The notes below the pieces were generated by a model. It saw nothing but the letters and a program-made list of their open reading frames with translations, did not search any database and was not told the DNA's origin. 64,000 nt of DNA, from assembly GCF_963921235.1 (NCBI RefSeq), contig NC_086097.1, forward strand, positions 140,184,001 through 140,248,000, in the 5' to 3' direction. This document shows, piece by piece, positions 1 through 64,000 of this stretch. The translations under genes and the position numbers were made by a program. Origin of the DNA: Mobula hypostoma. Lineage: Eukaryota. Positions within the stretch are counted from its first letter, which is position 1, and every line of letters begins with the position of its first letter.

Positions 1-1425
1 TGGTAATGCTCCCCAAATCTTCCTGCACTACATTGATGACTGTATTGGTGCTGCTTCATGCACCCATACTGAGCTCGTCAATTTCATCAACTTTGCCTCT
101 AACTTCCACCCTGCCCTTAAATTCATTTGGTCCATTTCTGACATACATTGTCAATCTCTCTGTCTACATCTCTGGAGATAAATTGTCTACCGACATCTTT
201 CATAAACCTGCAGATTTCCACCGTTATCTTAACTATACCTCTTCCCACCCTGTGTCCTGTAAAATTGCTTTTTTCTTTTCTTGGTTCCTTTGTTTCTGCC
301 ACATCAGTTCGAGGATGAGGCTTTCCTTTCCAGGACATCAGAGATATTCTTCTTCAAAGAACGGAGTTTCCCTTCCTCCACCATTGATGATGCCCTCATC
401 TGCATCTCCTCCATTTCCCAAACAAGTGCACTCACCCCACCTTCCTGCGTCTTAATAGGGATAAAGTTCCTCTTATCCTCACCTATCATCCCATGAGTCT
501 CTGCATCCAACACGCCATTCTCTGCAATTTCAGCCATCTTCCATGGAATCCAGTCACCAACCACATCTTTTCCTCCCCCAATTCTCCGCTTCCGTAGGGA
601 TTGCTCCCTCCGTGATTCCCTTGTCCATTCATCCTTTCCAACTATTTCCCTCCTGACACATATCCTTGCAAGCAAGAGATATGCTACACTTGCCCATTTA
701 CCTCCTACCTTACCTCCATTCAGGGCCCCAAACCGTCCTTACAAGTGAGGTAACACTTCACTGCGAATCTGTTAGGATCCTCTATTGTATCCAGTGCTCC
801 TGATGCAGCCTCCCGTACATTGGTGAGACCCAACATAAATTGATGGATGGCTTTGGTGAGCACATCCATTCCATCTGCCAAAAGTGGTATTTCCTGGCGG
901 CCGACCATTTTAATTCCTATCCCCACTCCCATTCCAACATGTTGGTCCATGGCCTCCTCTTTTGTCACGATGAAGCCACTCTCAGGGTGGAGGGAGCAAC
1001 ACTTCATATTCTGCCTAGGTAGCCTCCGATCTGATGGCATGAAAAAGTCTAGTAAAAAGTGTTTAAAAAATTCCCCTCCCATTCTCTCTCCTTTTATTTC
1101 CCACTCTGGCCTCTTACCTCTTCTCCTAACCTGCCTATCACCTCCCCTCGTGCCCTCCTTCTTCCCTTTTCCCCAATGCCCACTCTCCTCTCTTATCAGA
1201 TTCTTTCTTCTCCAGCCCTTCACCTTTCCCACTCACCTAGCTTCACCTATCACCTTCCAGCTGGTCCTCCTTTCCCTTCCACTACATTTTTATTCTGGCA
1301 TCTTTCCCCTTGCTTTCCAGTCCTAAAGAAGAGTCTCAGCCCAAAATGTCAACTGTTCATTCATTTCCATAGATACTGCCTGACCTGCTCAGTTGTTTTA
1401 GCATTTTAGTTGTGTTGCTTTGGAT
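1..1425 (+). mobile_element. Penelope-like retroelement, 3' part (RT C-terminus, Cys linker, GIY-YIG endonuclease, pLTR), decayed and running off the window start
   Basis: YIDD at 29-40, then DIFHKPADFHRYLNYTSSHP, a YPCKQEICYTCP linker and a decayed IYCIQC...YIGET GIY-YIG motif at ~780-830, with frameshifts and stops. Pyrimidine-rich pLTR contains a degenerate hammerhead at 1319-1354. Confidence 0.9.
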
Positions 1426-1810
1426 GGGATAGGGCTGTTTTCTTTGGAGCAAGGGAGGCTGAGAAGTGACCTTATGGTTTTATAAAATTATGGGATGCAT
1501 AGATAAGGAAGACAAGACAATGGCATGGCATGGTGTCTAAAACTAGAGGGCATTGATTTAAGGTGAGAGGGGTTAAGTTCAAAGGAGATATGAGGGGTAA
1601 AATGTTACATAGCGTAGTTGGTATCTGAAATGTGATGCCAGAGCAGGTTTCAAAGGAAGGGGCAGGAGCAACATTTAAGAGGCATCTGGACAGAAAGTAG
1701 AGTAACCAAGCTTATTGGGATATGGAATTAATGCAGACAGGTGGGATTAGTGTATATAGGAATGATGGTCTGCATGGACATAGAGGGCTGAAGGGCCTGT
1801 GTCTATGATA
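1426..1810 (+). mobile_element. CR1 (HER1-like) LINE 3' fragment
   Basis: Decayed LFSLEQGRLRSDL..VYKI and SKTRGH coding remnants and the 3' tail GGGCTGAAGGGCCTGT. Confidence 0.8.
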
Positions 1811-6169: not shown

Positions 6170-8384
6170 TTAAATCTTTTTTATTAATTATTATTGAAAA
6201 TCAATGAAAATACATTAAAGTAATCAAGTCAAGATGTCAATATGTACAATAAGAATTAAATTATCAAATAACTGATTAACAAAGCTAAACAATATATCAA
6301 TAATAAGAAGAAAAAATAAAATGTTAAAACTATTTTTTTGTTAAAAAGAAAAAAGGAAAAAAGAACTCCTACCAACTAAAACAAAAAAACCCTACTAACA
6401 GAAAAAAAACGAAAAAAAAACCATTGGGACCACAATCTCGGAGTTATATGCCATACAAGCTTCCATAAAAGAAAAACATCCATCTGCCAACTCAAATCCA
6501 TTTAAACAAGAATCAGAAGGGGGCCATCTTAATTAACTCAAATCAATTAATAGTAGCGGGCAAAAGAACCCCACCTTTTCTCAAAGTCAAATGGAGGATC
6601 AAAAGTTCGACCTCTGATTTTCTCCAAACTAAAACATAACATCGCCTGAGAGAACCATTGTATCAAAGTGGGAGCAGAGGCATCTTTCCATTTCAATAAA
6701 ATAGCCCTTCTGGCCAATAATGTAACAAATGCAATTAAATGTTGGTCTGATATAGAAATACTTTGAATATATTGAGGGATTATATCAAACGAAACTGTCA
6801 ATTTATTAGGTTGTAAATTAATTTTTAAAGCTTAAGAAATTGTAGAGAAAATAGATTTCGAAAACTGTTTCAATACAGAACACGACCAAAACATATGCGT
6901 CAATGTAGCTGTCTCAGTTTTACATCTATAACACTGACTATCAACATTAGGAAATATTTTAGACAGTCTTTCCTTTGTTGAATAGTAATGATGTACAATT
7001 TTAAATTGAATTAAAGAGTGACTGGCACAAATTGAAGAAGAGTTAACCAACTTCAAAATTCGCAACCAATCCTCTGTTATCAAGGTCACGTTAAGCTCTC
7101 TTTCCCAATCTTGCTTAATCTTATGTAAAGGATAATTGTACTGTTGTAATAGTAAATTATAAATTTTCCCAATAAAACCTTTCACTAAAGGATTCGTTTT
7201 TAAAATAATGTCTAAGTAATGTCTAAAATCTTGTATATATGGAAAGTTACTTAAATATTCTTGTAAGGAATGTCTGACCTGAAGATATTGCAAGAAATGT
7301 GAGTACGAGAGAGAGTATTTAGTTACTAATTTCTCAAAAGACATCAATCGGCCTTCTTGAAACAGATCCATGAAGGAATAGACTCCTTTATTCCTCCAAA
7401 GAAAAAAAGGGAAGATCACTAAGTGAAGGTTTAAATAAATAATTTCGATAAATTAAACTAAGAAGGTTAAATAATTGCAGATCTCCTTTTTGTCGACTTT
7501 CGAGGGGTACGAGACAAGGATGTCAGTTAAGTCCCCTGTTATTTAATTTGGCCATTGCACTTCGTGAAGCTAAAGATATTCATGGAATTTCCATAACTGG
7601 GACTATTCATAAGATCTCCCTTTATGCCGATGATCTCTTAGTTTATGTTTCGAATCCTGAAGAATCCATTCCTAGTTTATTGAAATTATTAAGTGAATTT
7701 GGGAAGTTTTTGGGATATAAACTAAACCTTTATAAAAGTGAATTATTTCCTCTAAATGATTCTGCTTCTATATATGATGACATTCCTTTTAAAGTTACGG
7801 ATTCTTTTAAATATTTAGGTATTATCATCACTAAAAATTATAGAGACCTTTATAGAGCTAATTTGGTTCCTTTAGTGGATTTTATGAAGCAATTATTTTG
7901 TAGATGGAATCCACTTACACTTTCGTTAGCTGGCCGAAATAATGCAGTTAAAATGATGATTTTACCAAAATTTTTATATGTATTTCAAAATATTCCTGTT
8001 TTTTAACCAATAAGTTTTTTGATCAGGTTGATTCTATTATTTCATCTTTTGTTTGGAATAATAAAAGACCAAGAATTGGAAAATATCATTTACAAAAATT
8101 AAAAAAGGATGGAGGTCCTGCTCTGCCTAACTTAAGAATGTATTATTGGGCTGTTAATACACGTTATGTGCATTCTTGGTTATATTGGACTGATAAAAAT
8201 GAACGACCACCTTGGATTGATTTGGAATTGAAAGCTGTGAAACAATTTTACTTAACTTCGCTATTAGGAGTTTCTTTCCTGTACAACTAGCCAAAATTTC
8301 TAATCTAAATTTATATCCTATGATTAAGCAGTCATTACAAATTTGGTACTAGTTCTGTAATTTTTTATAATCTCAAAAAATTTA
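6170..8384 (-). mobile_element. L1-clade LINE, 5'-truncated with a 5' inversion (3' part minus 6170-7470, inverted RT part plus 7470-8384)
   Basis: Minus: LIQFKIVHHYY...CYRCKTETATLTHMFWSC (L1 ORF2 Cys-rich end) and an AATAAA/A-rich tail. Plus: RGTRQGCQLSPLLF, KISLYADDLLVY, FKYLGI. TSD GCCTTCCT at 6162-6169 and 8385-8392. Confidence 0.92.
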
Positions 8385-9509
8385 GCCTTCCTAATTACTT
8401 GCTAAATCTCCATGTTGACAACTAGTGATCCTCGAATAAAGCTGTCCAGATTCCTCTGAACTCACATTTGCTAAATTCAATTTCCTCATGGTTTCTCATA
8501 GAGTTACCCCTTTGGCCCATTACGCCCACACTGACCTGACCTTCAAATACCTATCTATATTAATCCCGATTACCACCACACAATCCTTCTCTGCGTAACA
8601 ATTTAAGTACTCATCTAGATATTTGTTAAATGTTGTGAGAGTCTCTGCTCTCATCACCTCTCAAGTAAGTGTTCCAGATTTCAATTCCCCTCTGGTGAAA
8701 AAAATCCTCCTTACATTAGGATTCTGTTAGTGCATGACTTCATAGTTTAATGACAAATTTTTCCTAATTCCCAAAGACTGAATTGCCCTGTGAATGTATC
8801 ACCATTATTCACATTTACTACTGAGCAGCAACAGGTACATTCATGGTAAACACCAAAGTAAGATGGGCATTTGCTGCAAATCAGAGTCCAGTTACCCAAC
8901 CCAGCTAAAAGTATCAAGCTCAGGCAGGTGTCTCTGTAAAAAGCTATCTAGTTTCACTAGCCTACATCTTCTCAAAACGCACACTCTATTCCACAGTTCT
9001 GTGCTCTGTTGAAACAGCTGTGAATTTGAAACAAAACCAGAACCATTTATTTTCATATACATTTCTGATCATAATTTATATTATATTTTATGTATTGCAC
9101 TGTACTGCTGCCACAAAACAACAGATTTCATAACATTCGTCAGTGATAATAAAACTGATTCCAAAACTGCTGAAGATACCTGGCAGGTTTCTGTGAAGAG
9201 AGTAACAGAGTCTCTAGGTTGATGACTTTTCCAGTTCGGAATTTCAATTTTTGTCACATTTAGTGAATTTGAAGCTGGGTCAATATTGTTCATTTTCAAT
9301 TTGTCACAATGAAGGTCTGTTGCCAAAGTGTAAAATACCCGCAGTCCTGTTCTCGTTGTGTTTACTGTAAGGTACCAAGCCTAGATGTGAGTATTAGATC
9401 ACAGTTCAAATTGTAAGATCACAAGAATGAACTGCTAAATTCTGTGATGACCTCCCAAAACCAGTCAGTGCCTTCACATGGATTTCAAACAATGAGCTAA
9501 AATTACCAA

Positions 9510-10982
9510 CACGAAATGCTGAAGAAACTCAGCACGTGAGGCGACACCTATGTCAATGAATAAATAGTCGACGTTTTGGCCCAAGACCCTTCATTGGGAC
9601 TAGAAAGGAAGGGGGAAGACTCCCGATTAAAAAGGTTGGGGGGTGGGGGGGAAGGAAGACAAGCAAGAAGGTGATTGGTGAAGCCAGGTGGGTGGAAAAG
9701 ATAAAGAGCTGGAGAAAAAGGAACCTTTATAGGAGAATAGAGTGGGCCGTGGGAGAAAGGAAAGAAGGAGGGATACCCAGGTAGGTGATAGGCAGGTGAG
9801 GAGAAGAGGTAAGAGGCCGGAGTGGAGAATAGAAGAGGGTAGCAGGAGGGAAAAAGATAAAAAAAGTATTACTGGAAGGAGAAATTGATGTTCATGCCAT
9901 CAGGTTGGAGGCTACCTAGGCAGAACAACGTGTTGCTCCTCTACCCTGAGAGTAGCTTCTTTGGAGGCCATGGATTGACATGTCGGAATGGGAATGGGGA
10001 TAGGAATTAAAGTTGTTGGCTACCAGGAAATTCCACTTTTGGGGATGGACTGGAGGTGTTTGACAAAGCAGTCCCCCTATTTACTATGGGTCTCACCATT
10101 GCAGAGGAGGCTGCATTGGGATAAAATAAGACAACCCCAACAGATTTGCAGATTAAATGTTGCCTCACCTGGAAGGAATATTTGGGGCCCTGAATGGAGG
10201 TAAGGGAGGAGGTGCATTGGCAAAAGCTGAATTTTCTGGTGGCCAACCATCTTAATTCCTATGCTCATTCCCATTCCAACATGTTGGTCCACGGCCATCT
10301 CTTTTGCCATGATGAGGCCACTCTCAGTCTAGAGGAGCAACACCTTATATTCCATCCACAAAGGGTAGATAGCCTCCAACCTGATGGCATGAAACGTTTG
10401 GCAAAAGTTTAATTTCCCAGTGGCCAACCATTTTAATTCCTATCCCCATTCTCGTTTGACATGTTGGTTCATGGCCTCTTCTTTTGCCACAATAATGCCA
10501 CTCTCAGGGTAGAGAAGTAATGCCTCATTCTCTCTAGGTAGCCTACAACCTGAAGGCATGAACAACAATTTCTCTTTCTGGCATTTTTTTTTCTTTTCTC
10601 CTCCCACTTCCCTCTTCTATTTCTCACTCTGACTTCTTACCTCTTCTCCTCCTCACTTGCCTATCACTTCCCCTGGTGCTCCTCCTTCTCCCCTTACTCT
10701 CATGGTCCACTCTCCTCTCCTATTAGATTCCTTCTTCTCCATCCCTTTATCTTTTCCACCCACCTGGCTTCACCTATCACCCTCTAGCTTGTCCTCTTTC
10801 CCCTCCCCCACCTTTTTACTTTGGCATCTTCCCCCATCCTTTCGAGTCCCGATGAAGGATCTCGGCCTGAAAAGTCAGCTGTTTACTAATTTCCATTGAT
10901 GCTGACTGACCTACTGAGTTCTCCCAGCATTTTGGTGTGTTGCTCTGGATTTTCAGCATCTACAGAATCTCGTGTAATTGTG
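9510..10982. mobile_element. Penelope-like fold-back insertion: minus arm ~9510-10217, plus arm ~10218-10982 with an internal tandem duplication
   Basis: Both arms hold the GIY-YIG end plus pLTR facing outward, with degenerate hammerheads at 9566-9601 (-) and 10845-10880 (+). 10218-10393 is repeated at ~10398-10562. Flanks GCTAAAATTACCAA (9496-9509) and GCTATAATTACCAA (10983-10996). Confidence 0.88.
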
Positions 10983-11485
10983 GCTATAATTACCAAAGGT
11001 GTGGGAAAGGGAGGACTTGCAACAGCACCATAGGGTATGTTTTCTTGTGGTGCACCTAAGCATTTTTTTCTTGCTGTGAAACAATTCCTCTGCATTCTTG
11101 AAATTTACACTTCAAACTTTAACAACTTATACAGTACAAACCCTTCTGCCATAACATGCAATCACAGACTTAGCCTTATCCAAATATAATCACTCTGCAT
11201 TGCCAGGAAATTGTTTAGCAGTCAGCTTTAAGCTCGTTCACACTTCATAAAAGAGTTCAATGCTCTCATAACCCTTTCACCCAAGCACACCTATAATTAC
11301 AGCTGAACAAATTAAAACCTGCCAAGTACCAACCAATGATGCAAGAGCTTCCCAGGTAACTGGACCTCAGCTGATACTTAAAAGGCACCTTTATAGATCT
11401 ACATCAAATCTGACAACCTATTTTGGAATTTATACCATTAGGGTAACACACAAACTAAATAACACCAATATTTAGGACTGCTCAC

Positions 11486-11620
11486 AAACACGAGAAAATC
11501 TGCAGATGCTGGAAATCCAAACCACACACACAAAATGCTGGAGGAACTCAGCAGGCCAGGCAACAACTATGGAAAAGGGTAAACAGTTGACGTTTCAGGA
11601 CAAGACCCTTCATCAGCACT
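11486..11620 (-). mobile_element. Solo PLE pLTR 3' unit (hammerhead plus tail)
   Basis: Matches the terminal ~135 bp of the other pLTRs in the window. Confidence 0.88.
11585..11620 (-). ncRNA. Minimal type I hammerhead ribozyme motif, core intact
   Basis: Minus strand reads AGTG CTGATGA AGGG-TCTTG-TCCT GAAAC GTC^AACT. The core-adjacent stem I pair is mismatched (G/A). Confidence 0.7.
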
Positions 11621-12679
11621 TCTTATTTTTAATCCCTTGAATGTGGTTGACAGATGCTTTTAAAATTATCGTCAGTGAAAATCTTACCAGCGTTCTGAAG
11701 GAATTCCTTAGCCCGGCTCACCTGAGGGTTCGATCTACTCACCTGTACTCTGGAGCCAAAGTTGACAAGTGACCAGTCCATTAAACAACATGACGAAGGC
11801 CATCAGCCAAGTGACTGAGCACTCATCCACCATCTCCTTCCCCTCAGACTAACTACCCCACTTCACCCTGAGGCAGGGATCTGTTCATGGACAGAATTAA
11901 AGCACAATTTAAGCATGGCTAATTCACACTCTACCTGAGCCGGAGGACAGGTAATCTTTAAATGCCTAGCCTGACCTGAACCAGACACATAGACCTGAGT
12001 CCTAATGGGATAAGGTAAGGTAAGGGCATGTGCAGAAAAATAATAAAAAAACAGCCAGTGCCAGAGTTAGTCAGTAAGTCAGCAATATCTAAATAGATGA
12101 AAGAGCACCAAACTGAAACGATAGCACTATTTCTCTTGCACAGAGACTTCCTAACCTGCCATGTAACTCTGAACCTTCCCCTCCCCCGAGATTTTTATCT
12201 TCTGCTCAAGGAGGAGGAGCTATTCCCTACAAATCCCCACACTCTGCTGGCTTTGTGTAGAACCCCAGGCCCCACAGGTCGACCATCTGTGCCAGTAAGA
12301 GGGCATGTGGGTTTAAAATCCTCTGATCCCTGAGACAAATGTGACACTTCCCATCAGGTTGGGGGATTGGGCTTGGATCAGATAGTTAGAGCCCACACAT
12401 AGGCAATGGATCAAGTGGTCAGACCCCACCCAGGGGCACTGGATCAGCTTAGCTGGGATCAGATGGGCACACTCACGCAAGGGCACTGACCAGTGACCAT
12501 CTTCAGTCGTGACCACGGGAGAGCTGCTGCCAATTCCACAGCAAGGGCTGTCATGGTACATGCCTTGCACTTGGACAAAGCTGATTGTCCAATGAACGCT
12601 GGTCACTCTAACCAGACTCTAGCCAGAATCTCACCCAAGCTACTACCATCAAAAACACCAGAATTCAATACCTTCTCAG

Positions 12680-16149: not shown

Positions 16150-16990
16150 GCCACACTGGGAAGATACGAGCCAGAGGTTGCCAAATGTTGCTGGCAATGT
16201 CAAGTGTTTTTCAAGAGTGCTTTGAAAATATCATTGAACTACTTCCCCTGTCCACCTACTGATCACATTCTGCTACAGCTGTTTCAGAAGTCTTTATTTG
16301 GGTACGTGAGCAACATGGCCTGCTGAACAGACCATTACTGCTGGGGATATCGGCCTGAGAGAAGGTGCCGACCTTCGAATGAAGATGGTGTTGGAAGTGC
16401 CTTGAGCTGTCTGTTGTAGGTGGTCCAATAATAGAAGCAGATAGGTGACTGAGGACAACTGATAGATGGTGAATCGAGGACATTGAGTATCCTAATAAAG
16501 GGTCCTAGCTTGAAACGTTGACTCTCCATAGATACTGCCTGACCTGCTGAGTTCCGCCAGTACTTTGTGTGTTGCACTGATGACTTCTGTGCTTGATTTG
16601 AAGAAATGATTTTCAACCACTCCTATCTACCGTCGGGTAAAGAACCTGCTGAAAGCAGTGGTGAATTGCATCAAACAATGTCTGCCCTTGCTGAGAAGTA
16701 GCTCCCAGATGTGGGAAGTGTGTCATGTTTTCCAAGGTTTCACTATAAATCTTTATTGTCAGACAGAAGTGTTATACAACAGAAGGAAGTTGGTCAAGGA
16801 CATTGAATGCAAGGCCCATTCTTAAGGCAAGTATGCCTCAGTGCATGAGCTGATGAAAACTGGAGCTCAGTCTCAATTGTGCAAAGGCAAGTGCCCGAGT
16901 ACTACAGCCTGACCAGTGCCGCTATGATGATCAGTGTTCTGAAATCAAACGCAGTAGGTTGAACAGTTTTCCAGAAGTCCTGTGCAGGCG
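16150..16990 (-). mobile_element. Ancient RTE-clade LINE fragment, interrupted by a pLTR unit
   Basis: Minus-strand remnants in RTE order: HRTSGKLFNL, TLENMTHFPHLG, WTTYNRQLKAL, GGQGK*FNDIFKALLK. Confidence 0.65.
16488..16577 (+). mobile_element. Solo PLE pLTR 3' unit with degenerate hammerhead
   Basis: CCTAATAAAGGGTCCTAGCTTGAAACGTTGACT...ATAGATACTGCCTGACCTGCTGAGTTCCGCCAG. Confidence 0.75.
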
Positions 16991-20830: not shown

Positions 20831-21558
20831 GTAAAGGAGTGGAGAGAGTTTAGTGAAGGTTCAGTAGATTATAATACAGCTAAAATTAGTGGGAAGGTAG
20901 AGGATTGGGAAGCTTTAAAAATTAACAGATGGCAACTAAAAAGCCATAAACATGGAGGTAAACTAGCCAATAATATAAAAAGGACACAGAAAGTAGTTCA
21001 GATACACAAGGAATAAAAGAGAGATGAAAGTTGATACCGGACCACTGAGAAATGACACTGCAGGTAGTAATGTGGGAGAAAGAAATAGCTAAAGAACTTA
21101 AGAGTATTTTGCATCTTTCTTCACTGTGGAAGATTCTAGAAAAATGCCAAAATGCAACAGTGTCGGGGCAGAAGTGAATGCTGTTGCTATTACTAAGGAT
21201 AAGGTGCTTGGAAAGCTGAAAAGTCTGAAGGTAGATAAGCCACCTGGACTACACCCTAGGGTTCTGAAGAAGGTAGCTGAAGAGATGCTGGAGGCATTAG
21301 TAATGATATTTCAAGAATCGCTAGATTCTGGATGGTTCCTGAGGACTGAAAAATTACAAATGTCACTCCACTCTTCAAGAAGGAAGGGAGACAGAAGAAA
21401 GGAAATCATAGGTCAGTTTGCCTGATTTCAGTGGTTGGAAAGATGATGGAGTCTTTTATTAAGGATGGGGTTCCAGAGTACTTGGAGGCACATGAAAAAT
21501 AGGCCAAACTCAGCATGGTTTTCTAAAGGGAAATCTTGCTTGACAAACCTATTTGAAT

Positions 21559-21803
21559 CAACATGCACAACACGCTGGAGGAACTCAGCAGGTCGGGCAG
21601 CAGCTGTGGAAACGAACAGTCTACGTTTCAGACCGAGATCCTTCGTCAGGACTGAAGAGGGAGGGGGCAGGGGCCCTATAAAGAAGGTGGGGGGAGGGTG
21701 GGAAGGAGAAGGCTGGTAGGTGTCAGGTGAAAAATCAGTAAGGGGAAAGATCAAGGGGTGGGGGAGGGGAAGCAGGGAAGGGATAGGCAGGAAAGGTGAA
21801 GAA
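21559..21803 (-). mobile_element. Solo PLE pLTR inserted into CR1
   Basis: pLTR sequence splits the CR1 reading TNLFE|(C)FEEI. GAAT lies on both sides (21555-21558, 21804-21807). Confidence 0.88.
21617..21654 (-). ncRNA. Minimal type I hammerhead ribozyme, best-preserved copy
   Basis: Minus strand reads CAGTC CTGACGA AGGATCTCGGTCT GAAAC GTA^GACTG: perfect 5 bp stem I, full catalytic core, palindromic ACGT helix III and GUA triplet. Predicted cut between 21622 and 21621. Confidence 0.82.
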
Positions 21804-22195
21804 GAATGCTTTGAGGAAATATCAGACAGGATAGACAAAGGAGAGTCAGTGTATTTTGTTTATTTGGATATTAAGTAGGCCTTTGACAAGGTGCTACACA
21901 TGAGGATGCTTAACAAAATAAGAGCCCGTGGTATTATGAGAAAGGCACCACAAAGGATAGAAGATTGGCTGATTGGCAGGAGGCAAAGAATGGGAATAAA
22001 GGTGGTATCTTCTGGTTGACAGCTGGTGACTAGTGGTGTGCCACTGGGGTTGGTACTGGAACTATTTCTTTTCACATTGCATGCTAATGATTTGGATGAA
22101 GGAATTGATAACTTTGTGGCCAAGTTGGCAGATAATACAGAGAAAGGTGGAAGGGCAGGTAGTGTTGAGGGAGCAGGGTGTCTGCAGAAGGACTT

Positions 22196-24824: not shown

Positions 24825-25090
24825 AACTCGCTTCCTCTTTGTTCTCTGGGTACTTGACCTGTCCCCCAACAGGGACAGCCTCCAAACTTCCTCTCTTGCT
24901 TTTATAGCCATCTATCAGATATTTGCTCTCTAAAAACCAAATAATCTATCCTTGTAATCAATGTACTTCATCCCATAAACCGTGTACTCTGATGCCCTCA
25001 GCCCTTCCTATAATGTGACACCAGAATTTGACACAACACTCTGGTTGAACAGTGTTTTATAAGTTCAGCATAACTTTCCCATTTTATAAT

Positions 25091-25256
25091 AAAAACAGAA
25101 CTTGCTGGAAGCACTCAGCTGGTTAGGCAGTACCTGTGAAAAGAGAAAGAACGTTAACATTTCAAATCTACATCCCTTTCCACAGATGCTGCCTGATACA
25201 CTGAGAGTTTCCAGCATTTTCTATTACCATTTGAGATTTCCAGCATCTGCAGTTTT
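25091..25256. mobile_element. Small inverted-pLTR hairpin element (old PLE derivative)
   Basis: Left arm AGAACTTGCTGGAAGCACTCAG...TAGGCAGTACCTGTGAAAAG pairs imperfectly with right arm CTTTCCACAGATGCTGCCTGA...CTGAGAGTTTCCAGCATTTTCT. Confidence 0.7.
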
Positions 25257-30180: not shown

Positions 30181-31328
30181 CTAACTTCAGGCAGAGGGAA
30201 GACAGAACAGCTGCTTGATCACTGCTCATGCCTTCATACTGATCATTATGAATTATGGAACTTGTAAAGTTCCAAGGTTGTCCAGTTAAATAAATAACAC
30301 ATTCCAGAAATTTGCAAGGAATTCTGAACAAAATATTTGAAGTACTACTTAGAAATTCTTTCAACTCTTATCAAAGAACTCAGAGACAAAGCAGTTTATA
30401 TTGATAATTCGATCTTACTTTGGTAGACAGCCAAGGTCTACAGGTAGAAACAAAGACGAAAGGATGTGACACCCGGGTTGTGCAACTTTAAAATAGAGAA
30501 TCTGATTTAGCATCCCCCTCAGATCCAAACCACCTTACAGCCTACCCAGTAGGCTTAAAATAAAGTTGCAGACAGTTATATCATTTTTTTTATTTGTAGG
30601 GTTGTTGAGATAATCCCTTTCAGTAATTGAGAGGTAAATGTTATTCACAGAACAATGAATTGAACAGTGTTGGTGGATCATCTATAACCACCTGAGATAA
30701 CATATTGGACTTCATGCAAAGAACAGGTTCTTCTGAGAGTGGTGTGCCAGTAATGTCTATCTTCATTCTGTGCCTGGCAGAGCAGGACCTAAGCCAACAG
30801 ACATCCAGTTCAGAGACAACACCACCCCTCATTGTACCGTGGTTGAGCCTTAAATGCTCCTGATCTTGGAGGGAATGCATATCACTCATTCTGAAAAACA
30901 GAGTGAATGATCAGTGGACATCGTTCTCTCCAGTATCCACTGGCTGAATCTCTCCCCACCCCTCGACCTTTCTGAACATCCTGACCTTGAAATCAGGCTC
31001 CAAGAACACTACAAGTTCTTTATGCAAATCCTGTTCTTTATTAGTGCTAGCTCCTCATCTGTGGAGGGACTCTTCATGATCTCAGCCAACAGCAGCATTA
31101 GATTTGATTACACTGCAATTCAATACTTCCCTGCCCATAATCATGTACCTTGATATCAGTTCTAAAACCCAGCGCCCTTAATCTGGAATATACTCCATGA
31201 TTGGGAGAAATCTAAACACAAACATTATTGCAGGGCATCGCCTAATATGTAGTGACAGCAGGAACACTGGCTGCTATTCCTCCTCCACAGCCAAGAACAC
31301 TGTGGGTGGCGGTCACTGCCTGGTACCC

Positions 31329-32560
31329 AGCATGCACTACTCTTTTGAGGTCTATCCACAGATTTTCAATGATGTTTAGGTCAGGGGACTGTGAGGGCCA
31401 TGGCAAAACCTTCAGCTTGCGCCTCTTGAGGTAGTCCATTGAGGATTTTGAGGTGTGTTTAGGATCATTATCCTGTTGTAAGAAGCCATCCTCTTTTCAC
31501 CTTTGGCTTTTTTACAGAGGGTGTGATGTTTGCTTCCAGAATTTGCTGGTATTTAATTGAATTCATCCTTCCCTCTACCAGTGAAATGTTTCCCGTGCCA
31601 CTAGCTGCAACACAAGCCCAAAGCATGATCGATCCACCCCCGTGCTTAACAGTTGGAGAGGGGTGCTTTTCATGAAATTCTGCACCCTTTTTTCTCCAAA
31701 CATACCTTTGCTCATTGCGCCCAAAAAGTTCTATTTTAACTTCATCAGTCCACAGGACTTGTTTCCAAAATGCATCAGGCTTGTTTAGATGTTACTTTGC
31801 AAACTTCTGACGCTGAATTTTGTGGTGAGGACGCAGGAAAGGTTTTCTTCTGATGACTCTTCCATGAAGGTCATATTTGTGCAGGTGTCGTTGCACAGTA
31901 GAACAGTGCACCACCACTCTAGAGTCTGCTAAATCTTCTGGAAGGTCTTTTGTAGTCAAACAGGGGTTTTGATTTGCCTTTCTAGCAATCCTATGAGCAG
32001 TTCTCTCAGAAAGCTTTCTTGGTCTTTCAGACCTCAACTTGACCTCCACCATTCCTGTTAACTGCCATTTCTTAATTACATTATGAACTGAGGAAACAGT
32101 TTCCTGAAAACGCTTTGCTATCTTCTTATAGCCTTCTCCTGCTTTGTGGGCACCATTTATTTTAATTTTCAGAGTGCTAAGCAGCTGCTCAGAGGAGCCC
32201 ATGGCTGCTGATTGTTGGGACAAGGTTTGAGGAGTCAGGGTATTCATAAAACTTTGAAATTTGCATTACCTGGCCTTTTCTAACGATGATTGTGAACAAA
32301 ACATAGCCCTAACAAGCTAATTAATGTCTGAAACCTTGGAAAAAGTTATCTGAGAGCTCAAATCTCTTGAGGTGCCCAAACTTCTTCTTCCTTTCCTTTT
32401 TTTCCCCACTCTAAAATTGTACAAAATAAAAATAATACACTAATCTTGCTTAAAATGTTGAAAAGAATGTTTCATCTTTAACTTTATGACTTTTGGAGAT
32501 CAGTTCATCTCCTACTCACTTAACTATTCACAGTAACAGAAATACTTCTGCATGCCACGG
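31329..32560 (-). mobile_element. Tc1-like DNA transposon, 3'-truncated, transposase pseudogene
   Basis: GEGYKKIAKRF...RPRKLS...RRKPFL, stop at 31792-31794, then WKQVLWTDEVKIELFG and [15 protein letters not shown]. 5' end TA|CCGTGGCATGCAGAAGT (TA at 32561-32562) and inner repeat AAGTTTGGGCACC at ~32371-32383. Confidence 0.93.
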
Positions 32561-33199: not shown

Positions 33200-33575
33200 G
33201 TGGGACATTGCAACCTTGGGGAAAGGAGTACAGTTACCATGGGGATAGGGTTACCCTGGGGACAGGTGTGTGTCTGATGCAGTTACTATGGCGATAATAT
33301 GTTGGGGGGACATGGTTACTGTGGGGACAGGAATGTGTGGGACACTGTCATAGTCGGGACATGAGAACATGGGACACAGTTATTGTGGGGACACAAGCCT
33401 GTGTAATGTGGTTACCATGGGGACAGGGGGTGCTTGGGATATGGTTACTGGGGCTACAGGAGTGAGTGGGACATGGTTACTGTGGGGGTAGGTGTGTGTG
33501 GGTCATGGTTACCTTGGAGACAGGGATATATGGGACACCATTACCGTGGGGACAAGGAGTGTGGGATGTGACAGG
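33200..33575 (+). repeat. Degenerate G-rich minisatellite (~31-33 bp unit)
   Basis: About 11 diverged units of GTGGGACATGGTTACTGTGGGGACAGG. Confidence 0.85.
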
Positions 33576-37072: not shown

Positions 37073-38247
37073 CTGAATTGCAAACAGATAACCATGGTTA
37101 TTGACCTGGGAGAAATCTATCAAAAGCAAAATGCAGCGTATACCAAAAAAAAAACAAAGTGCTCGAAGTACCCATCGGTGAATCGGAAATGGAGTTTACA
37201 TTTCAGGTTGGTCGCCTCCTAACAGAACAGGGGGAAGTTAGTGAGAAAACATAGCCTGTAATAGAAATGGAAAGATTGCAGCACACATGAAACAAGATCA
37301 CTTAGAATGATGACACTCCAGAAGATTCTGTTAATGAGAATAAACTGAACCAGCAATCAATAACGTACTTCCATAGGTAATATTTTAAATGTTACCTCAG
37401 CTACTTGGCATTGTGAACATGTATGTGAAGGAAACAGTTAACTTTGTATATACTACTGCTTGGAACTTGTAAGCAGGGATACGCAGAACTCAGAATTCAC
37501 GGTCTTCATAAGTATGCTCTGGAACTTGGGAGACAGCAAAGTGGAGATTTTAGATCTGCTATAAATGAGTACATCCTCATGTACATATAGATGAGCCCAA
37601 TTACAGTACAGAGTCTGTGAGTCACTGGAAACCATCAGAAAGAACACGAGGAAAAGTTGTTCCCATATTTAAACAGGAGATTCAACCACACCTAAACAAA
37701 ATCAATGTGATCTTCAAATATCCACCAAATCCAATGCACGTTACGCGAGACATTACTGTCCCCTCCCAGTCCAACATCCCCAGCACTGAGACTCTAATGA
37801 CCATCTGTCAGCCTGTTGGACAGGCCACGACATTTGCATATCCGACACCAGATTCCCAGGTAGACATCTGCATATCTACCAGATTCCCAGGTAGACATCC
37901 CTTTCCGGGCTTTCTGCCAGCGGAGTTCAGTAGATTGTCAGAGGTGAAAAGGTGTACAGAGAATAGAATTCAAAGTTGTTCTCAAAACCCTCTTAAGAAA
38001 TGCACATCCGACCTGACAACTTGTACTCCCTGGTCCATAATCACTCAGAAGAGGAGCATTACCCAGGATTGCATTGGGAATCTTGATTGCCTGCATCAGG
38101 AGCACACACAAATGCAGCAGAAACAGTGGAAGGAATGTACCACCTCACAAACTACACCACCATTCCTTCCAACATCACTGTTCCATCTATGGAAGAACCT
38201 GCAGTCCCAAAATTGGACTCATCAGTACGTCAAAACCAATACAACTG

Positions 38248-39133
38248 TACTTTATTGTCACCAAACAATTGATACTAGAACGTACAATTATCACAGTGAT
38301 ATTTGATTCTGTGCTTCGCGCTCCCTGGAGTACAAATCGATAGTAAATAGTAAAAATTTAAATTAGAAATCATAAATAGAAAATAGAAAATAGAAAATAG
38401 AAAATAGAAAAGGGAAAGTAATGTAGTGCACAAAAAACCGAGAGGCAGGTCCGGATATTTGGAGGGTACGGCCCAGATCCGGGTCAGGATCCGTTCAGCG
38501 GTCTTATCACATTTGGAAAGAAACTGTTCCCAAATCTGGCCGTACGAGTCTTCAAGCTCCTGAGCCTTCTCCCGGAGAGAAGAGGGACGAAAAGTGTGTT
38601 GGTTGGGTAGGTCGTGTCCTTGATTATCCTGGCAGCCCTGCTCCAACAGTGTGCGGTGTAAAGTCAGTCCAAGGACGGAAGATTGGTTTGTGTGATGTGC
38701 TGGGCTGTGTTCACGATCTTCTGCAGCTTCTTCCGGTCTTGGATAGGACAACTTCCAGTCCAGGTTGTGATGCACCCTAGAAGAATGCTTTCTACAGTGC
38801 ATCTATAAAAATTAGTGAGGGTTTTAGAGGACAGGCCAAATTTCTTTAGTTTTCTCAGGAAGTAAAAGCACTGGTGGACCTTCTTGGCAGTGGACTCTGC
38901 TTGGTTGGACCAAGTCAGGTCATTTGTGATATTAACCCCCGAGGAACTTAAAGCTTTTGACCTGTTCCACTTGCGCATCACCGATGTAAATAGAGTCGTG
39001 TGGTCCGCTAGTCCTTCTGAAGTCAACAAACAATTCCTTCGTCTTGCTGACGTTGAGGGCTAGGTTATAGTCTTCGCACCATGCCACCAGGTTCTTAATT
39101 TCCTCTCTGTACTCAAACTCATCATTACCCGAG
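38248..39133 (-). mobile_element. Young Rex1/Babar LINE 3' fragment
   Basis: [19 protein letters not shown]...KSFKFLG...TNFYRCTVESIL. Closely matches the reverse complement of 44815-45702. (AGAAAAT)n in the 3' UTR. AACTG on both flanks (38243-38247, 39134-39138). Confidence 0.93.
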
Positions 39134-39594
39134 AACTGGAGCGGAAGCAAGTTATTTGCAGTCACAAGATACTTATAGTAAACTGATGAAACTTCAGGTC
39201 CTCTCCAGGTTACTGACAACTTTCACTTCTGTGAGTCTTTTGTAACCTGAGTGGTTTGCCAGTCACAGCATAGCCACTAACTGAGCTCCCACTCGACAGA
39301 AACTGCTGCAACTTCACAGCAGCTGGCAAATCCATCCTGCTAGTCTCCCAAAAGTTCACTCAATTGTATGGCCTGTGTATAGGCTAGGCATTTGGAGACT
39401 GAAATGTACTGGAAAAACAAAATGGAAACATGGCTACATGACAATCTAGTAAATAACAACTGTCATTAGTGGGGCCAAGACATGCTCTCATCTACCAACC
39501 TCTCAGTCGAGAAGAATGCACATAGGACTCCATCCCTAACAGAATGGTAACAGAAAATTGTAGTGAAATTAAGCAGTAGCTCACCATAATTTTC

Positions 39595-48700: not shown

Positions 48701-49359
48701 CCAATTCATGATATTGTACTTCACAAAGACATGGCAATCCCAGGTAAAGTTGCATCATATCCACAGCTCAGAGGAAGATCAGAATCTAAAGTGAAGCATT
48801 TAGATATAATAGAGCTGGCACAAAGTCAGAAACAGCTGTCCTGTGGAAAATATTAATATCTGTACATTCCATGTAGCTGAGGTATGAACAAAATTCAGAA
48901 AGTACTCATGGAGGGTGTGATTATTAGAAGAACATAATTATCGTAAAGGCAACAACACACACCTAGTGGCTGAAATGACTGTGTAGGCAGCTTCATGTTA
49001 ATTCTTGTGGTTTATCACAACCATTAGAATGGACTAACATATAATAACACAGTCTCAGAGCACTTACTATCTGATGAAAAATTGTACTGCAGCCAAAACC
49101 CCAGTTAAATAAACTATCTCAGTGAAGCATCTGCACATGGGAATGCTCACCTGCATTTATTACACCAGGGAGAGGCCTCACATTTAAGGCATTATCAAAT
49201 CTTTTGTCTTCATGGGTATTGCTGGTTCAGTTGCACCTTCTCACAGTAACTGTTATTTTAGATTTCTAGCTCTGACAGTTTGTTTTTCCTTTTGAAACCT
49301 GGCAATGCTCGTTGGTCCTGCTGAGGGATTGTTTTTTCATATGTTTCTTCATATGAGCG

Positions 49360-49563
49360 GCTGGAAGTCTGAAATAAAAGCAAAAAGTCTGGAAGCACTC
49401 AGTAAATCAGACAGCATCTGTGGAAAGAGAAATGAGTTAACAAAATAGGTCAACGATCTTTAATTCTGATGAAGTATCCTTAACCTGAAATGTTAACTCT
49501 TACTCTCTTTCTGAAGATGCTGTCTGACCTAATGAGGGTTTTCTGCATTTTCTGTTTCATTTC
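49360..49563. mobile_element. Small inverted-pLTR hairpin element with a central hammerhead remnant
   Basis: Imperfect ~72 bp inverted arms (49371-49442 and 49491-49563). AATT CTGATGA...CCT GAAAT GTT AACT at 49462-49498. Confidence 0.75.
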
Positions 49564-49939
49564 AAAAACCCTACAGACTTAGAAAATGTGGCATTGCAAC
49601 TCCTGGGCTGATGGGGAGGTGCAGGGTTCAGCAGTCTTGTATTTGGTGTCTACTGCCAGGGAGGAAAGTATGCACACTACTCACTCTTTACTGTAAACCC
49701 AATCGAGCAGATGGGAAGACACAGCCAGTAGCATCTATGTACAGCAGTGCTTGCTGAATCTATCCTGGCACCAGAGCTTCCATCTGGCTCTTTGACAAGT
49801 CAGCCCAGTATAGAACTTGCAGGAGATCACCCTGGTGGTGGTGTCCTGAACCGTAGTGGTGATCGTGGGTTGGAATATCAAAGGATGGAGCTTCCACCAC
49901 CCTGCCCCATTCCACACTGGATTGAAAAGGTCGTTGTAG

Positions 49940-56168: not shown

Positions 56169-56688
56169 TGACAGTGCTTTCCCAATCACATCTACTTACA
56201 GTAGTTACTGACTGAGGAAGCAGTGTGTTTTTTTTTAGCTTCATGGATTGTAAATACATTCAACGTGTCTGCACCTTTTACACTGTTCAACAAACCGATT
56301 AGCAGCTTAAAGAGGTATAAAATTCAGAAACATATCTGGCATACCTATGCTTCCATATGTAGTAAAATACCAATTCTTATTAACTTGGATTTAACAGTGA
56401 AATTGCAACTATTAACTAGAATGTTTAACATTCTGAGAATGAGATATCATAGACTGACACTAGTCCCTACAATGTAGAAGCAGAAGGAAGAAATATTGAT
56501 CAAATGTTCCTGCAGAAAATACTTCCTTTATAATTCAGGTAATTGATTAAATGCCACACATTTGCAGTTTAAATAAAATTGAACTGGTTAATTAACTTGC
56601 ATTGAAAAAAAATCAACTCTGAACACAAGTAAACAACAATGATGATGTTCAAAGTGAGAATGGCTTCAAAATAATGTGAGTGACATCA

Positions 56689-56815
56689 TGACGAAGGGTC
56701 TCGGCCTGAAACGTCGACTGTACCTCTTCCTATAGATGCTGCCTGGCCTGCTGTGTTCACCAGCAATTTTTATGTGTGTTGCTTGGAATTCCAGCATCTG
56801 CAGATTTCCTCGTGT
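56689..56815 (+). mobile_element. Solo PLE pLTR 3' unit, 5'-truncated inside the hammerhead core
   Basis: TGACGAAGGGTCTCGGCCTGAAACGTCGACTGTACCTCTTCCTATAGATGCTGCC...CAGCATCTGCAGATTTCCTCGTGT. Same young subfamily as 61974-63330. Confidence 0.9.
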
Positions 56816-57446
56816 ATGGTATTTTAAAATCAGGTAAAAACAATAACAATATTGCACTAATACAACTGGTGCAGTATCATTTAATGTACGTGGAGGGAAA
56901 GGACTACTTGCAATTTACTGAGATTCCTCATCCCAGATGCAGCTTGCAGGAAAACTTGGAACAGCCCAGAACTGGGCACAAGAGAGAAATTCATTTCACA
57001 GAGTTAAGGCATTGTTTTTATGCAAATGAAGATGGTTCAGACAAGTGGAAAAGTGTAGACACTCCTGCAAGAAACGTGCCCTGTTTTGAACCAATTGTTT
57101 CACCATTTGATATCCAGTTTGATTTTAGACCAGTTAATTTGGAGGAGCTGATTACTGATAACTGCAACAAACCAGTGTACTGACCCATGGTACTACACCA
57201 TCAAAGGTGGGAAAGGGAGGGAGCTATGGAAAAGTGAAAATAAAAATTAAACTTTTAAATTTGAAGCATTGCTGAATCAGAACCCATGTTGCTCAGCACA
57301 GTGAATAGAACAGTCAGAGTTAAAGCTAGGCAGTAGAGCTTTGGAAGACAGAAGCAGAGAGTAGGAACAGGAGTAAGCCATTCAGACCACTCCGCTATAG
57401 CCCATCAGCCTAAATCAGTACCTTGCTTCTGCTTCCTCCCGACATC

Positions 57447-61875: not shown

Positions 61876-62070
61876 ATTCAGTAATTACATGATGCAGCAG
61901 TTACAACGCATTTGAATGTATTCAATACATTGCAATAGGAGGTCACAGTGAGGGTTGATAAGAATAAATAAGTAAACATGAGGAAATCTGCAGATGCTGG
62001 AAATTCAAGCAACACACACGAAAAATGCTGGTGAACGCAGCAGGCCAGGCAGCATCTATAGGAAGAGGTA

Positions 62071-62108
62071 CAGTCGATGTTTCGGGCCGAGACCCTTCGT
62101 CAGGACTA
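62071..62108 (-). ncRNA. Minimal hammerhead ribozyme motif (helix III ACGT changed to ACAT)
   Basis: TAGTC CTGACGA AGGGTCTCGGCCC GAAAC ATC^GACTG. Confidence 0.72.
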
Positions 62109-63254
62109 GCTAAAAGAAGAGATAGTAAGAGATTTGAAAGTGGGAGGGGGAGGGGGAGATCCGAAATGATAGGAGAAGACAGGAGGGGGAGGGATGGAGC
62201 TAAGAGTTGGAAAGTTGATTGGCAAAAGGGATACGAGGCTGGAGAAGGGAGAGGATCATGGGACAGGAGGCCCAGAGAGAAAGAAAGGGGGAGGGAAGCC
62301 CAGAGGATGGGCAAGGAGTATAATGAGAGGGACAGAGGGAGAAAAAAAAGAGGAAAAAAAAATAAATAACAGATGGGGTATGAAGGGGAGATGGGGCATT
62401 AACAGAAGTTAGAGAGGTCAATGTTCATGCCATCAGGTTGGAGGCTACCCAGATGGAATATAAGGTGTTGTTCCTCCAACCTGAGTGTGGTTTCATCTCG
62501 ACAGTAGAGGAGGCTGTGGATAGACATATCAGAACGGGAATGGGATGTGGAATTAAAATGTGTGGCCACTGGGAGATCCTGCTTTCTCTGGCGGACAGAG
62601 CATAGGTGTTCAGCGAAACGGTCTCCCAGCCTGCGTCAGGTCTAGCCAATATATAAAAGGTCGCATCGGGAGCACCAGACGCAGTATATAACCCCAGCCG
62701 ACTCAGGGGTGAAGCGTCGCCTCACCTGGAAGGACTGTCTGGGGCCTTGAATAGCGGTGAGGGAGGAAGTGTAAGGGTACTTGTAGCACTTGTTCTGCTT
62801 ACAAGGATAAGTGCCGGGAGGGAAATTGGTGGGAAGGGATAGGGGGGACAAATGGACAAGGGAGTCGCGTAGGGAGCGATCCCTGCGGAAAGCGGAAAGA
62901 GTGGGGCAGGGAAAGATGTGCTTAGTGGTGGGATCCGGCTGGAGGTGGCAGAAGTTACAGAGAATTATATGTTGGACCCGGAGGCTGGTGGGGTGGTAGG
63001 TGAGGACCAGGGGAACCCTATTCCTAGTGGGGTGGCGGGAGGATGGGGTGAGAGCAGATGTGCGTGAAATGGGAGAGATGCGTTTGAGAGCAGAGTTGAT
63101 GGTGGAGGAAGGGAAGCCCCTTTCTTTAAAAAAGGAGAACATCTCCTTCGTCTTGGAATGAAAAGCCTCATCCAGAGAGCAGATGCGGCGGAGACGGAGG
63201 AATTGCGAGAAGGGGATGGCATTTTTTCCATCTCTTACTATCTCTTCTTTCAGT

Positions 63255-63292
63255 TAGTCCTGACAAAGGGTCTCGGCCTGAAACGTCGACTG
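63255..63292 (+). ncRNA. Minimal hammerhead ribozyme motif (G8 changed to A, likely inactive)
   Basis: TAGTC CTGACAA AGGGTCTCGGCCT GAAAC GTC^GACTG. Confidence 0.68.
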
Positions 63293-64000
63293 TACCTCTT
63301 CCTATAGATGTTGCCTGGCCTGCTGCGTTCAAGAGTAAATAAGTGGCTGTTTTGACTAGTTGTGAACTTCAAGACTTTAATTAGTATCTGCAGGTTGTTA
63401 TACATTGAATTTTAAGTATGACCCAACAACTTAGCAGTTCAGTGTTACTACATAAATTTGAGTGTTACCATAAATAAATTAAGGAAAAGCTATCAATTTG
63501 CATTACCAGCCACACTTTAACCCATGCCCAATTTACAACAGAAGTGGTAATCCTTCAAGCTATAAACATCAGATCAAAACTTTGATCTCAACATAGTAAA
63601 TTTGTGAGCTCATCAAGTGCCTGTAAAATTGCAGAGTACAACACAGCTGCTTATTGTTAAAATTACTCCAGTTATGATATTAAAATAGAAATTCAATTAA
63701 TACTCTACAAGACTGCTATTTAATAAAACTGTTCTTTAAAGTTGCGGTAATTTTAGACATAATATTTTACAATAATTCAGTATTCTTTAACTAGAATAAA
63801 GCCTATCTGTTAGAATATTAACAATTTTGACCAGAGTTGCAAACACTAATCTGTCAAATTTCAGATAATCTACAATGCTACCCTTCAAGTGTCTGATACA
63901 GGCACTAGTACAAATCACCATAGGACAGGGTTTCACTGGTAGCTTTTATAGCCAGTTTACTTCAGCAACTGGCTGAATCGTTGGGAATTTGACTGCAACA

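What the first reader, a model, noticed from the sequence alone, without database searches (positions are those of the whole stretch)
21617..21654. High-copy minimal hammerhead ribozyme carried by the Penelope-like pLTR (10 copies in 64 kb)
Seen: the motif AGTC-CTGAYGA-AGGGTCTCGGCCY-GAAAC-GTH-GACT recurs at 1319-1354(+), 9566-9601(-), 10845-10880(+), 11585-11620(-), 16488-16523(+), 21617-21654(-), 49462-49498(+), 56689-56720(+), 62071-62108(-) and 63255-63292(+). The 21617 copy has the full core, a perfect 5 bp stem I and a GUA triplet. The 49462 copy swaps the core-adjacent stem I pair from C-G to T-A, a compensatory change. Established: CUGANGA / GAAA / NUH is the hammerhead core, and PLE pLTRs encode minimal type I hammerheads whose palindromic helix III is thought to work through dimers. 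Inference: helix III here is only ACGU and cannot close within one copy, so cleavage would need two same-strand copies. At this density any long host pre-mRNA crossing the region could carry pairable ribozyme halves.
Basis: partly seen in the sequence, partly recalled or inferred. Interest (0 to 1): 0.72.

Follow-up and report, generated by a model that had tools for sequence, protein, structure and literature searches.

The report
Decayed Penelope retroelement hammerhead motifs
The repeated 38-base motif matches the already described minimal hammerhead ribozyme carried at the end of Penelope-like jumping genes, but all ten copies in this window are mutated leftovers that are likely inert, so the catch is correct and the kind is ordinary.

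Summary
All ten sites exist and lie in the 3' repeat (pLTR) of a Neptune-type Penelope-like element, on its sense strand. They are decayed: 0 of 10 match the quoted consensus, 4 of 10 keep the catalytic core, and 2 of 10 also keep both stems. The flagged 21617 copy has a G10.1·U11.1 wobble and is predicted to misfold (stem II probability 0.01). The family is a genuine minimal hammerhead: 36 of 46 protein-selected relatives carry the core on the sense strand after the ORF (antisense 4 of 46), with covarying stems and a covarying helix-III palindrome. Within the window the core decays as fast as its flank (9.2% vs 9.1%; few copies, low power). The 49462 'compensation' is likely a subfamily trait. 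Host pre-mRNA cleavage is unlikely here: the plus strand has no competent enzyme half, the best minus-strand partners are 12-40 kb apart, and inverted neighbours would pair first. No host gene was identified. The motif was described in 2014 (PMC4209133), and this scan has reported the same thing before in this genome and in others. Cleavage was not tested.

The parts
21617..21654 (-). Flagged minimal hammerhead motif: 5-bp stem I, intact core (C3 at 21649), extra A after A9, 4-bp stem II closed by G10.1·U11.1, ACGU palindrome, GUA triplet; predicted scissile bond 21622/21621
   Evidence: Predicted to misfold: stem I and stem II pair probabilities 0.01
21559..21803 (-). About 245-bp 5'-truncated Penelope 3' end (pyrimidine-rich 3' UTR, motif, downstream block) that carries the flagged copy; flanked by a 4-bp duplication at 21555-21558 and 21804-21807; interrupts a CR1-type LINE reverse transcriptase remnant
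   Evidence: The LINE reading frame runs on across the insertion; CR1 label recalled from the motif, not from a call; similarity to other pLTR copies
62402..63226 (-). 3' part of the Penelope-like ORF: RT thumb, cysteine linker, GIY-YIG endonuclease; two in-frame stops
   Evidence: 58% identity over 96% of the query to a Stegostoma protein, E 7.9e-94; relatives carry RVT_1 and GIY-YIG; Pfam GIY-YIG E 0.0013, 19.4 bits, below the 22.6 cut-off; homology starts at 63226
62071..62108 (-). Best-folding copy: intact core, G10.1-C11.1, stems I and II predicted (P 0.97, 0.98), but G16.2 is A (AUC triplet, palindrome broken); about 290 nt after the ORF stop; element ends near 61974
   Evidence: 77% of laid DNA depth reads G at 16.2, and loose ends mark 61974
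63230..63332 (+). Inverted pLTR arm at the 5' end of the 62071 insertion; holds the 63255-63292 copy (G8A)
   Evidence: 94% complementary over 102 nt to 62032-62133
2..1431 (+). Older Penelope remnant: frameshifted RT end, linker with three cysteines (CX4CxxC), endonuclease, 3' UTR and the 1319-1354 copy (G5A, G12A)
9495..10987 (.). Head-to-head inverted insertion with endonuclease fragments; arms carry the 9566-9601(-) and 10845-10880(+) copies, both U4C
11481..11621 (-). Solo pLTR tail starting at the outer edge of the motif; copy 11585-11620, core intact, pair 2.1-1.1 broken
16489..16604 (+). Solo pLTR tail; copy 16488-16523 (G5A, G8A)
25074..25251 (.).
49347..49595 (.). Inverted pair of the second subfamily, junction at 49461/49462; plus arm holds copy 49462-49498 (core intact, U2.1-A1.1, stem II broken)
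56686..56826 (+). Solo pLTR tail of the young subfamily, truncated inside the core (C3 and the 5' strand of stem I missing); copy 56689-56720

Best explanation
The motif lies in the 3' repeat of a Neptune-type Penelope-like retrotransposon and matches the known minimal type I hammerhead; it likely cuts only when two same-strand repeats of an intact element pair up, and the ten mutated copies in this window are likely inert leftovers. Shown: position after the RT-endonuclease ORF on the sense strand, core sequence, covarying stems across relatives, mutations in every window copy. Inferred mechanism: an intact element is transcribed with a pLTR at each end, about 3 kb apart. The two motifs would swap strands so that A15.1-C15.2-G16.2-U16.1 of one pairs with the same four bases of the other, and each core would cut its partner after the NUH triplet. 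This is probably slow and helped by the element's own protein. Reverse transcription then scatters 5'-truncated tails, often with an inverted arm, and these appear to decay without selection on the core.
For: ORF identity and position. Relatives chosen by protein alone: core on the sense strand 79-366 nt after the ORF in 36 of 46 loci, antisense in 4 of 46; in the 34 distinct hits pair 2.1-1.1 holds in 33 (A-U 14, U-A 16, C-G 3), G10.1-C11.1 in 32, 15.2-16.2 in 30 (C-G 25, U-G 3, U-A 2), the extra A in 34; first three stem I pairs 97 of 102 against a shuffled mean of 57, maximum 75. Covariation score 0.887 vs 0.216 shuffled, 0 of 500, on a 19-sequence set that was preselected for pairing. L013 and L040 show repeat-ORF-repeat with two same-strand motifs 3066 and 3152 nt apart. 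In public contigs, loose ends from another subfamily fall at 62070 and 62107, bracketing the motif. Decay in nine window copies: core 9 of 98 sites changed, downstream block 22 of 242, Fisher p = 1.0. Literature: monomers inactive, dimers weakly active (PMC4209133); the anole element's hammerhead cleaves only with the element's protein (PMC11167929).
Against: No cleavage assay was possible. The core-versus-flank test rests on nine copies and has little power; non-CpG core sites changed slightly less (5 of 80 vs 22 of 242, p = 0.49), and 3 of those 9 copies keep the whole core against about 2 expected under neutral decay. No full-length element of this species was available, so the tandem layout comes from distant relatives. 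10 of 46 relatives had no core within 420 nt. Rfam gave no hammerhead match at gathering score in the window or at E up to 10 in 61900-63500. The anole study found that cleavage is not needed for insertion in vitro and saw no RNA-seq read ends at the site, so the biological role is itself unsettled.
Confidence: 0.88

Rival explanations
1. Dispersed same-strand copies pair inside a long host pre-mRNA and cut it; for example the 62071 core acting on the 21617 site, or the 21617 core on the 9566 site.
For: Four copies keep the core. Enzyme and substrate halves can come from different copies, so a copy with a dead core can still be a substrate (follows from the double-hammerhead layout, PMC4209133 Fig. 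1 legend). The repeat is present in two runs guessed to be RNA: 10,504 and 7,461 contig pieces laid. Other intronic hammerheads are conserved in amniote genes (PMC6155905 passage).
Against: No plus-strand copy has core plus stems. On the minus strand the workable pairs are 12 kb (21617/9566) and 40 kb (62071/21617) apart; the first needs a copy predicted to misfold, the second has a C·A mismatch in the 4-bp helix III. Inverted neighbours 1.1 and 5.1 kb from 62071 would form duplexes of about -188 and -231 kcal/mol, against about -8 for the double hammerhead. No sign of selection on the core. No host exon was recognised.
Confidence: 0.04
2. The motif is kept in the active lineage mainly as a protein-binding or folding signal in the pLTR, and cleavage is incidental.
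For: Hammerhead mutants did not affect insertion in vitro and no read ends were seen at the site in the anole element. Naiad elements spread without hammerheads (10.1101/2021.04.23.441226 passages). Both arms of one insertion here share U4C, which suggests that a core-defective RNA was still copied (one event). U11.1 makes up 44% of laid DNA depth.
Against: The catalytic positions themselves, not only the stems, are nearly invariant across very different relatives (alignment), and a C3G/G8C double mutant partly restored cleavage in the anole element.
Confidence: 0.07
3. The resemblance to a hammerhead is a chance feature of one repeat family amplified many times.
For: All window copies descend from one or two source elements, so they are not independent; Rfam finds nothing.
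Against: Same core, same place and strand, different but paired stems in 36 of 46 protein-selected relatives; simulated sequence of the same size gives 0-1 descriptor hits per strand, none of the minimal palindromic type.
Confidence: 0.01

Closest known systems
Minimal hammerheads (min-HHR) in the pLTRs of metazoan Penelope-like elements (Cervera and de la Pena 2014, PMC4209133)
   Same: Type I topology, 4-5 bp helix I, one extra nucleotide between 9 and 10.1, no loop 3, palindromic 15.2-16.2, location in the pLTR, mostly dispersed solo copies; reported there for Xena, Poseidon and Neptune elements of fishes.
   Different: Stem II is 4 bp here against 7-8 bp in the Schistosoma family; 7 of 10 window copies have G·U at 10.1-11.1; the parts of that paper I read do not mention cartilaginous fishes; local density here is 10-12 motifs in 64 kb, counting decayed copies.
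Poseidon element PAc of Anolis carolinensis (Frangieh et al. 2024, PMC11167929)
   Same: Endonuclease-bearing Penelope-like element with a pLTR hammerhead, a tail on one end, AT-rich targets.
   Different: PAc is of the Penelope/Poseidon clade; this element has the cysteine linker of Neptune/Nematis. PAc cleavage was shown and needs protein; nothing is shown here.
Non-LTR retrozymes of animals (10.64898/2026.07.22.740005)
   Same: Type I hammerheads derived from Penelope pLTRs; reported in one chondrichthyan genome.
   Different: Retrozymes are head-to-tail tandem units each with a hammerhead; here the copies are solo or head-to-head, and the nearest same-strand pair is 2.0 kb apart.
Domesticated intronic type I hammerheads of amniotes (RECK and others; PMC6155905 passage)
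   Same: Type I hammerhead core in vertebrate non-coding DNA.
   Different: Those are conserved single loci; the copies here sit in transposon debris and show no conservation beyond their flank.

Membership tests
Metazoan PLE min-HHR | Core CUGANGA / GAAA / NUH | tested here: met
   Intact in 4 of 10 window copies including 21617; found in 36 of 46 relatives allowing one mismatch
Metazoan PLE min-HHR | Type I topology with short helix I and helix II that covary | tested here: met
   both stems intact in 2 of 10 window copies
Metazoan PLE min-HHR | [quoted passage not shown] | tested here: met
   A in 10 of 10 window copies and 34 of 34 distinct relatives
Metazoan PLE min-HHR | G10.1-C11.1 pair | tested here: inconclusive
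   G-C in 3 of 10 window copies and G·U in 7, including 21617; G-C in 32 of 34 relatives; U11.1 in 44% of laid DNA depth. Met by the family, not by the flagged copy
Metazoan PLE min-HHR | No loop 3; palindromic 15.2-16.2 | tested here: met
   ACGU in 21617; 15.2-16.2 complementary in 8 of 10 window copies and 30 of 34 relatives, with a U-A alternative
Metazoan PLE min-HHR | Located in the pLTR on the element's sense strand | tested here: met
   About 280-290 nt after the ORF at 62071 and 1319
Metazoan PLE min-HHR | Self-cleavage as a dimer | not testable with these tools
   Needs an assay; contigs cannot show RNA ends; the dimer energy calculation did not discriminate
Neptune-type EN+ Penelope-like element | RT followed by C-terminal GIY-YIG endonuclease in one ORF | tested here: met
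   only the 3' part of the ORF is in the window
Neptune-type EN+ Penelope-like element | CX2-5CxxC zinc-finger linker between RT and EN | tested here: met
   Three cysteines in the 2-1043 remnant, two in the 62402-63226 copy; shared by Neptune and Nematis
Neptune-type EN+ Penelope-like element | Placement in the Neptune clade by RT phylogeny | not tested
   No tree was built; Neptune versus Nematis rests on the linker and on vertebrate occurrence (recalled)
Neptune-type EN+ Penelope-like element | 5' truncation, inverted 5' arm, tail on one end | tested here: met
   Four head-to-head pairs; the 63255 arm ends about 60 nt earlier than the 62071 arm
Non-LTR retrozyme | Two or more consecutive head-to-tail units each with a complete hammerhead | tested here: not met
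   No such array among the 13 segments
Rfam hammerhead families | Match to a curated covariance model | tested here: not met
   0 matches at gathering score; no hammerhead family at E up to 10 in 61900-63500. Likely because those models need helix III (inference)

The most novel reading that the evidence does not exclude
In a genome this rich in the motif, young intact copies inside host introns are cut by trans-dimer formation, helped by the element's protein when it is expressed, so the family acts as a genome-wide conditional RNA-cutting burden; the common G10.1·U11.1 form and the core-defective lineages would be attenuated variants selected under that cost.
Probability: 0.05. Interest if true: 0.65.

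Novelty: new member of a known kind. Interest (0 to 1): 0.14.

Why it matters
As found, it matters little: it extends a motif described in 2014 to a cartilaginous-fish Penelope family. The family could still be useful material. It is abundant, has at least two subfamilies with different stem I sequences, and about half of the laid depth carries a wobble at the usually fixed 10.1-11.1 pair, so a genome-wide test of orientation bias in introns could ask whether these ribozymes cut in vivo, which remains open for Penelope elements. This window and the flagged copy are poor substrates for that test.

Tried and rejected
Dimer energies: all same-strand and self pairs of window copies put the double hammerhead 13 kcal/mol or more above the best alternative, but 14 intact relatives gave gaps of 5.5-19.7, so this calculation does not separate live from dead copies and is not used as evidence. 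Stem II probability was more informative: 0.99 or more in 12 of those 14 relatives against 0.01 for 21617. Rfam: nothing relevant. A DNA pattern from the downstream block found 0 matches in viral and metagenome contigs, so no same-family DNA loci were obtained. No whole genome was held, so copy number and intron orientation bias were not measured; summed contig depth is not a copy number. Read laying: the raw-read run X21 held nothing (0 laid); no pile-up of starts or ends, which contigs cannot show; none of the 15 joints shown (91 more not shown) falls on the scissile bond; one single-contig joint near it (62074 to 61975, X16) is too weak to use. A-to-I editing of inverted copies: differences richer in the RNA-guessed runs were not limited to A>G, so no support. 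Splicing at the acceptor-like sequence after the motif: no joint among those shown supports it. Host gene: 12 long ORFs scanned in Pfam gave only transposon domains in 4 and nothing in 8; the 245-aa ORF at 37569 had no homologue; shorter ORFs were only read by eye; a six-frame Pfam scan did not run. Whether a gene spans the window is open. The 49462 pair as a compensation event in that copy: rejected in favour of a subfamily trait. Lunse et al. (RNA Biol 14:1499) could not be read; I saw only its title in a reference list.

Full report
Observation. All ten coordinates hold a recognisable copy of the motif. The loose core pattern gives 3 matches against 0.38 expected, and 0 of 100 shuffles reach 3. 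The copies are much more decayed than the finding implies. None of the ten matches the quoted consensus. Six have core changes, two more (11585, 49462) keep the core but have broken stems, and only 21617 and 62071 keep core and both stems. The flagged 21617 copy has the stated 5-bp stem I and GUA, but its stem II is closed by G10.1·U11.1, and two substitutions create competing hairpins: the predicted fold is not a hammerhead (-11.1 vs -6.6 kcal/mol; stem probabilities 0.01). The 62071 copy folds stems I and II (0.97, 0.98) but has A at 16.2, which breaks the palindrome; 77% of laid DNA depth reads G there.

The element. Upstream of 62071 on the same strand lies the end of an ORF with two stops, 58% identical to a Stegostoma protein (E 7.9e-94); its longer relatives carry RT and GIY-YIG domains (Pfam GIY-YIG below cut-off). 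A second remnant at 2-1043 keeps a CX4CxxC linker, which marks Neptune and Nematis elements; I built no tree. The motif follows the ORF by about 290 nt, and the element ends about 100 nt further on, near 61974. Inverted 5' arms and a tail on one end fit the published insertion structure. The flagged copy sits in a roughly 245-bp tail that interrupts a LINE reverse transcriptase remnant with a 4-bp duplication; the LINE frame continues across it. The host is inferred to be a cartilaginous fish from the protein hit.

Is the family a real hammerhead? I fetched 80 loci by protein similarity alone (the best 80 of 389 confirmed). Of the 46 with a mapped ORF end and at least 200 nt after it, 36 carry the core on the sense strand 79-366 nt downstream (one mismatch allowed, no pairing required), 4 on the antisense strand, and 10 have none within 420 nt. 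Among 34 distinct hits, pair 2.1-1.1 holds in 33 with three pair types, G10.1-C11.1 in 32, the 15.2-16.2 palindrome in 30 (including U-A in place of C-G), and the extra A in all 34. The first three stem I pairs hold in 97 of 102 cells against a shuffled maximum of 75. These relatives fall into a limited number of families, so the counts are not independent events. A 19-sequence alignment, preselected for pairing, gives a covariation score of 0.887 against 0.216. L013 and L040 are repeat-ORF-repeat units with same-strand motifs 3066 and 3152 nt apart, the layout in which a dimer could form. In public contigs laid on 61950-62450, loose ends from another subfamily fall at 62070 and 62107, so the motif is shared where its immediate flanks differ; the block downstream of it is also shared between subfamilies.

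Are the window copies under selection? In nine copies (49462 left out as a different subfamily) the core differs from the majority at 9 of 98 sites and the downstream block at 22 of 242 (p = 1.0); non-CpG core sites 5 of 80 (p = 0.49). Three of the nine keep the whole core against about two expected. This fits neutral decay but has little power. The U2.1-A1.1 pair at 49462 belongs to a second subfamily whose 3' strand recurs at 49426 and 25142; it is one lineage-level change with a single 5' strand to show it.

Host pre-mRNA. Six copies are on plus and four on minus. No plus copy has core and stems. On minus, the workable enzyme-substrate pairs are 21617 with 9566 (12 kb; the enzyme is predicted to misfold) and 62071 with 21617 (40 kb; mismatch in helix III). 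A transcript crossing 62071 would also contain inverted copies 1.1 and 5.1 kb away, predicted to pair at about -188 and -231 kcal/mol against about -8 for the double hammerhead. The absolute dimer gap is not evidence, because intact relatives score similarly. Two runs guessed to be RNA hold the repeat, but contigs show neither strand nor ends. No host exon was recognised; that check is incomplete.

Mechanism. Shown here: anatomy, strand, covariation and decay. From the literature: single minimal motifs do not cleave and dimers cleave weakly (PMC4209133; I read parts 1-2 of 4, not the supplements, which may list further taxa); the anole element's hammerhead cleaves only with the element's protein, is not needed for insertion in vitro and leaves no detected read ends (PMC11167929, parts 1-2 of 4); a review states the dimer model (PMC6765202, passages). 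Inferred: in an intact tandem element two pLTR motifs would swap strands through the four-base palindrome and cut the precursor, and the dispersed tails are by-products.

Comparison and novelty. It works like, and is a member of, the metazoan Penelope min-HHR class; the flagged copy departs only at 10.1-11.1, and activity is untested. It is not a retrozyme array. Two library searches listed no paper on these motifs in sharks or rays, while a 2026 preprint reports hammerhead retrozymes in one chondrichthyan (10.64898/2026.07.22.740005; part 1 of 5 and passages). Also seen as passages only: 10.1101/2021.04.23.441226 and PMC6155905. Earlier notes of this scan reach the same verdict in this genome and in others; they are unchecked and not counted as support, and their genome-wide counts were not verified. 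Verdict: a correct catch of a known kind, with the functional extension unsupported. Interest 0.14.

Noticed in passing
window 62084; copies 10845, 11585, 16488, 21617, 49462, 56689, 63255: Position 11.1 is U in 7 of 10 copies while G12A, the mirror product of the same CpG, occurs in 2; U11.1 is 44% of laid DNA depth and 58% and 52% in the RNA-guessed runs. It may be a trait of a source lineage and not only CpG decay.
   Followed up: partly
window 9566-9601 and 10845-10880: Both arms of one inverted insertion share U4C, suggesting the template RNA already had a defective core. U4C also occurs in L015, L032 and L067.
   Followed up: no
window 11585, 16488, 49461/49462, 56689: At least 5 of the 13 pLTR segments begin at the outer edge of the motif or inside it; none begins at the predicted scissile bond (by eye).
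   Followed up: no
window 62053-62070(-) and equivalent places: A pyrimidine tract ending in YAG follows the motif by about 15-20 nt in most copies and looks like a splice acceptor; Penelope pLTRs can hold introns. No supporting joint was among those shown.
   Followed up: partly
window 62073-62078 region and 49491-49496: In both subfamilies the six bases centred on the scissile bond are palindromic (GUCGAC in one, GUUAAC in the other); this is not general among the distant relatives.
   Followed up: no
protein P0002, C-terminal end: The Stegostoma protein appears to read through the 3' UTR into the hammerhead motif, judged from its last residues; inference from the peptide only.
   Followed up: no
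L026:323 and L013:1028: In these relatives the long open frame begins inside the hammerhead motif, as reported for the anole element.
   Followed up: no
window 31245-32265(-), 53215-54104(+), 6550-8290, 38248-39134 and 44241-45702: Other transposon remnants: Tc1-type transposase (Pfam), a likely hAT piece (recalled resemblance), an inverted LINE pair with RT and zf-RVT domains, and two 91-93% identical RT-bearing copies in opposite orientation about 6 kb apart.
   Followed up: no
window 33307-33554: Degenerate 32-bp tandem repeat.
   Followed up: no
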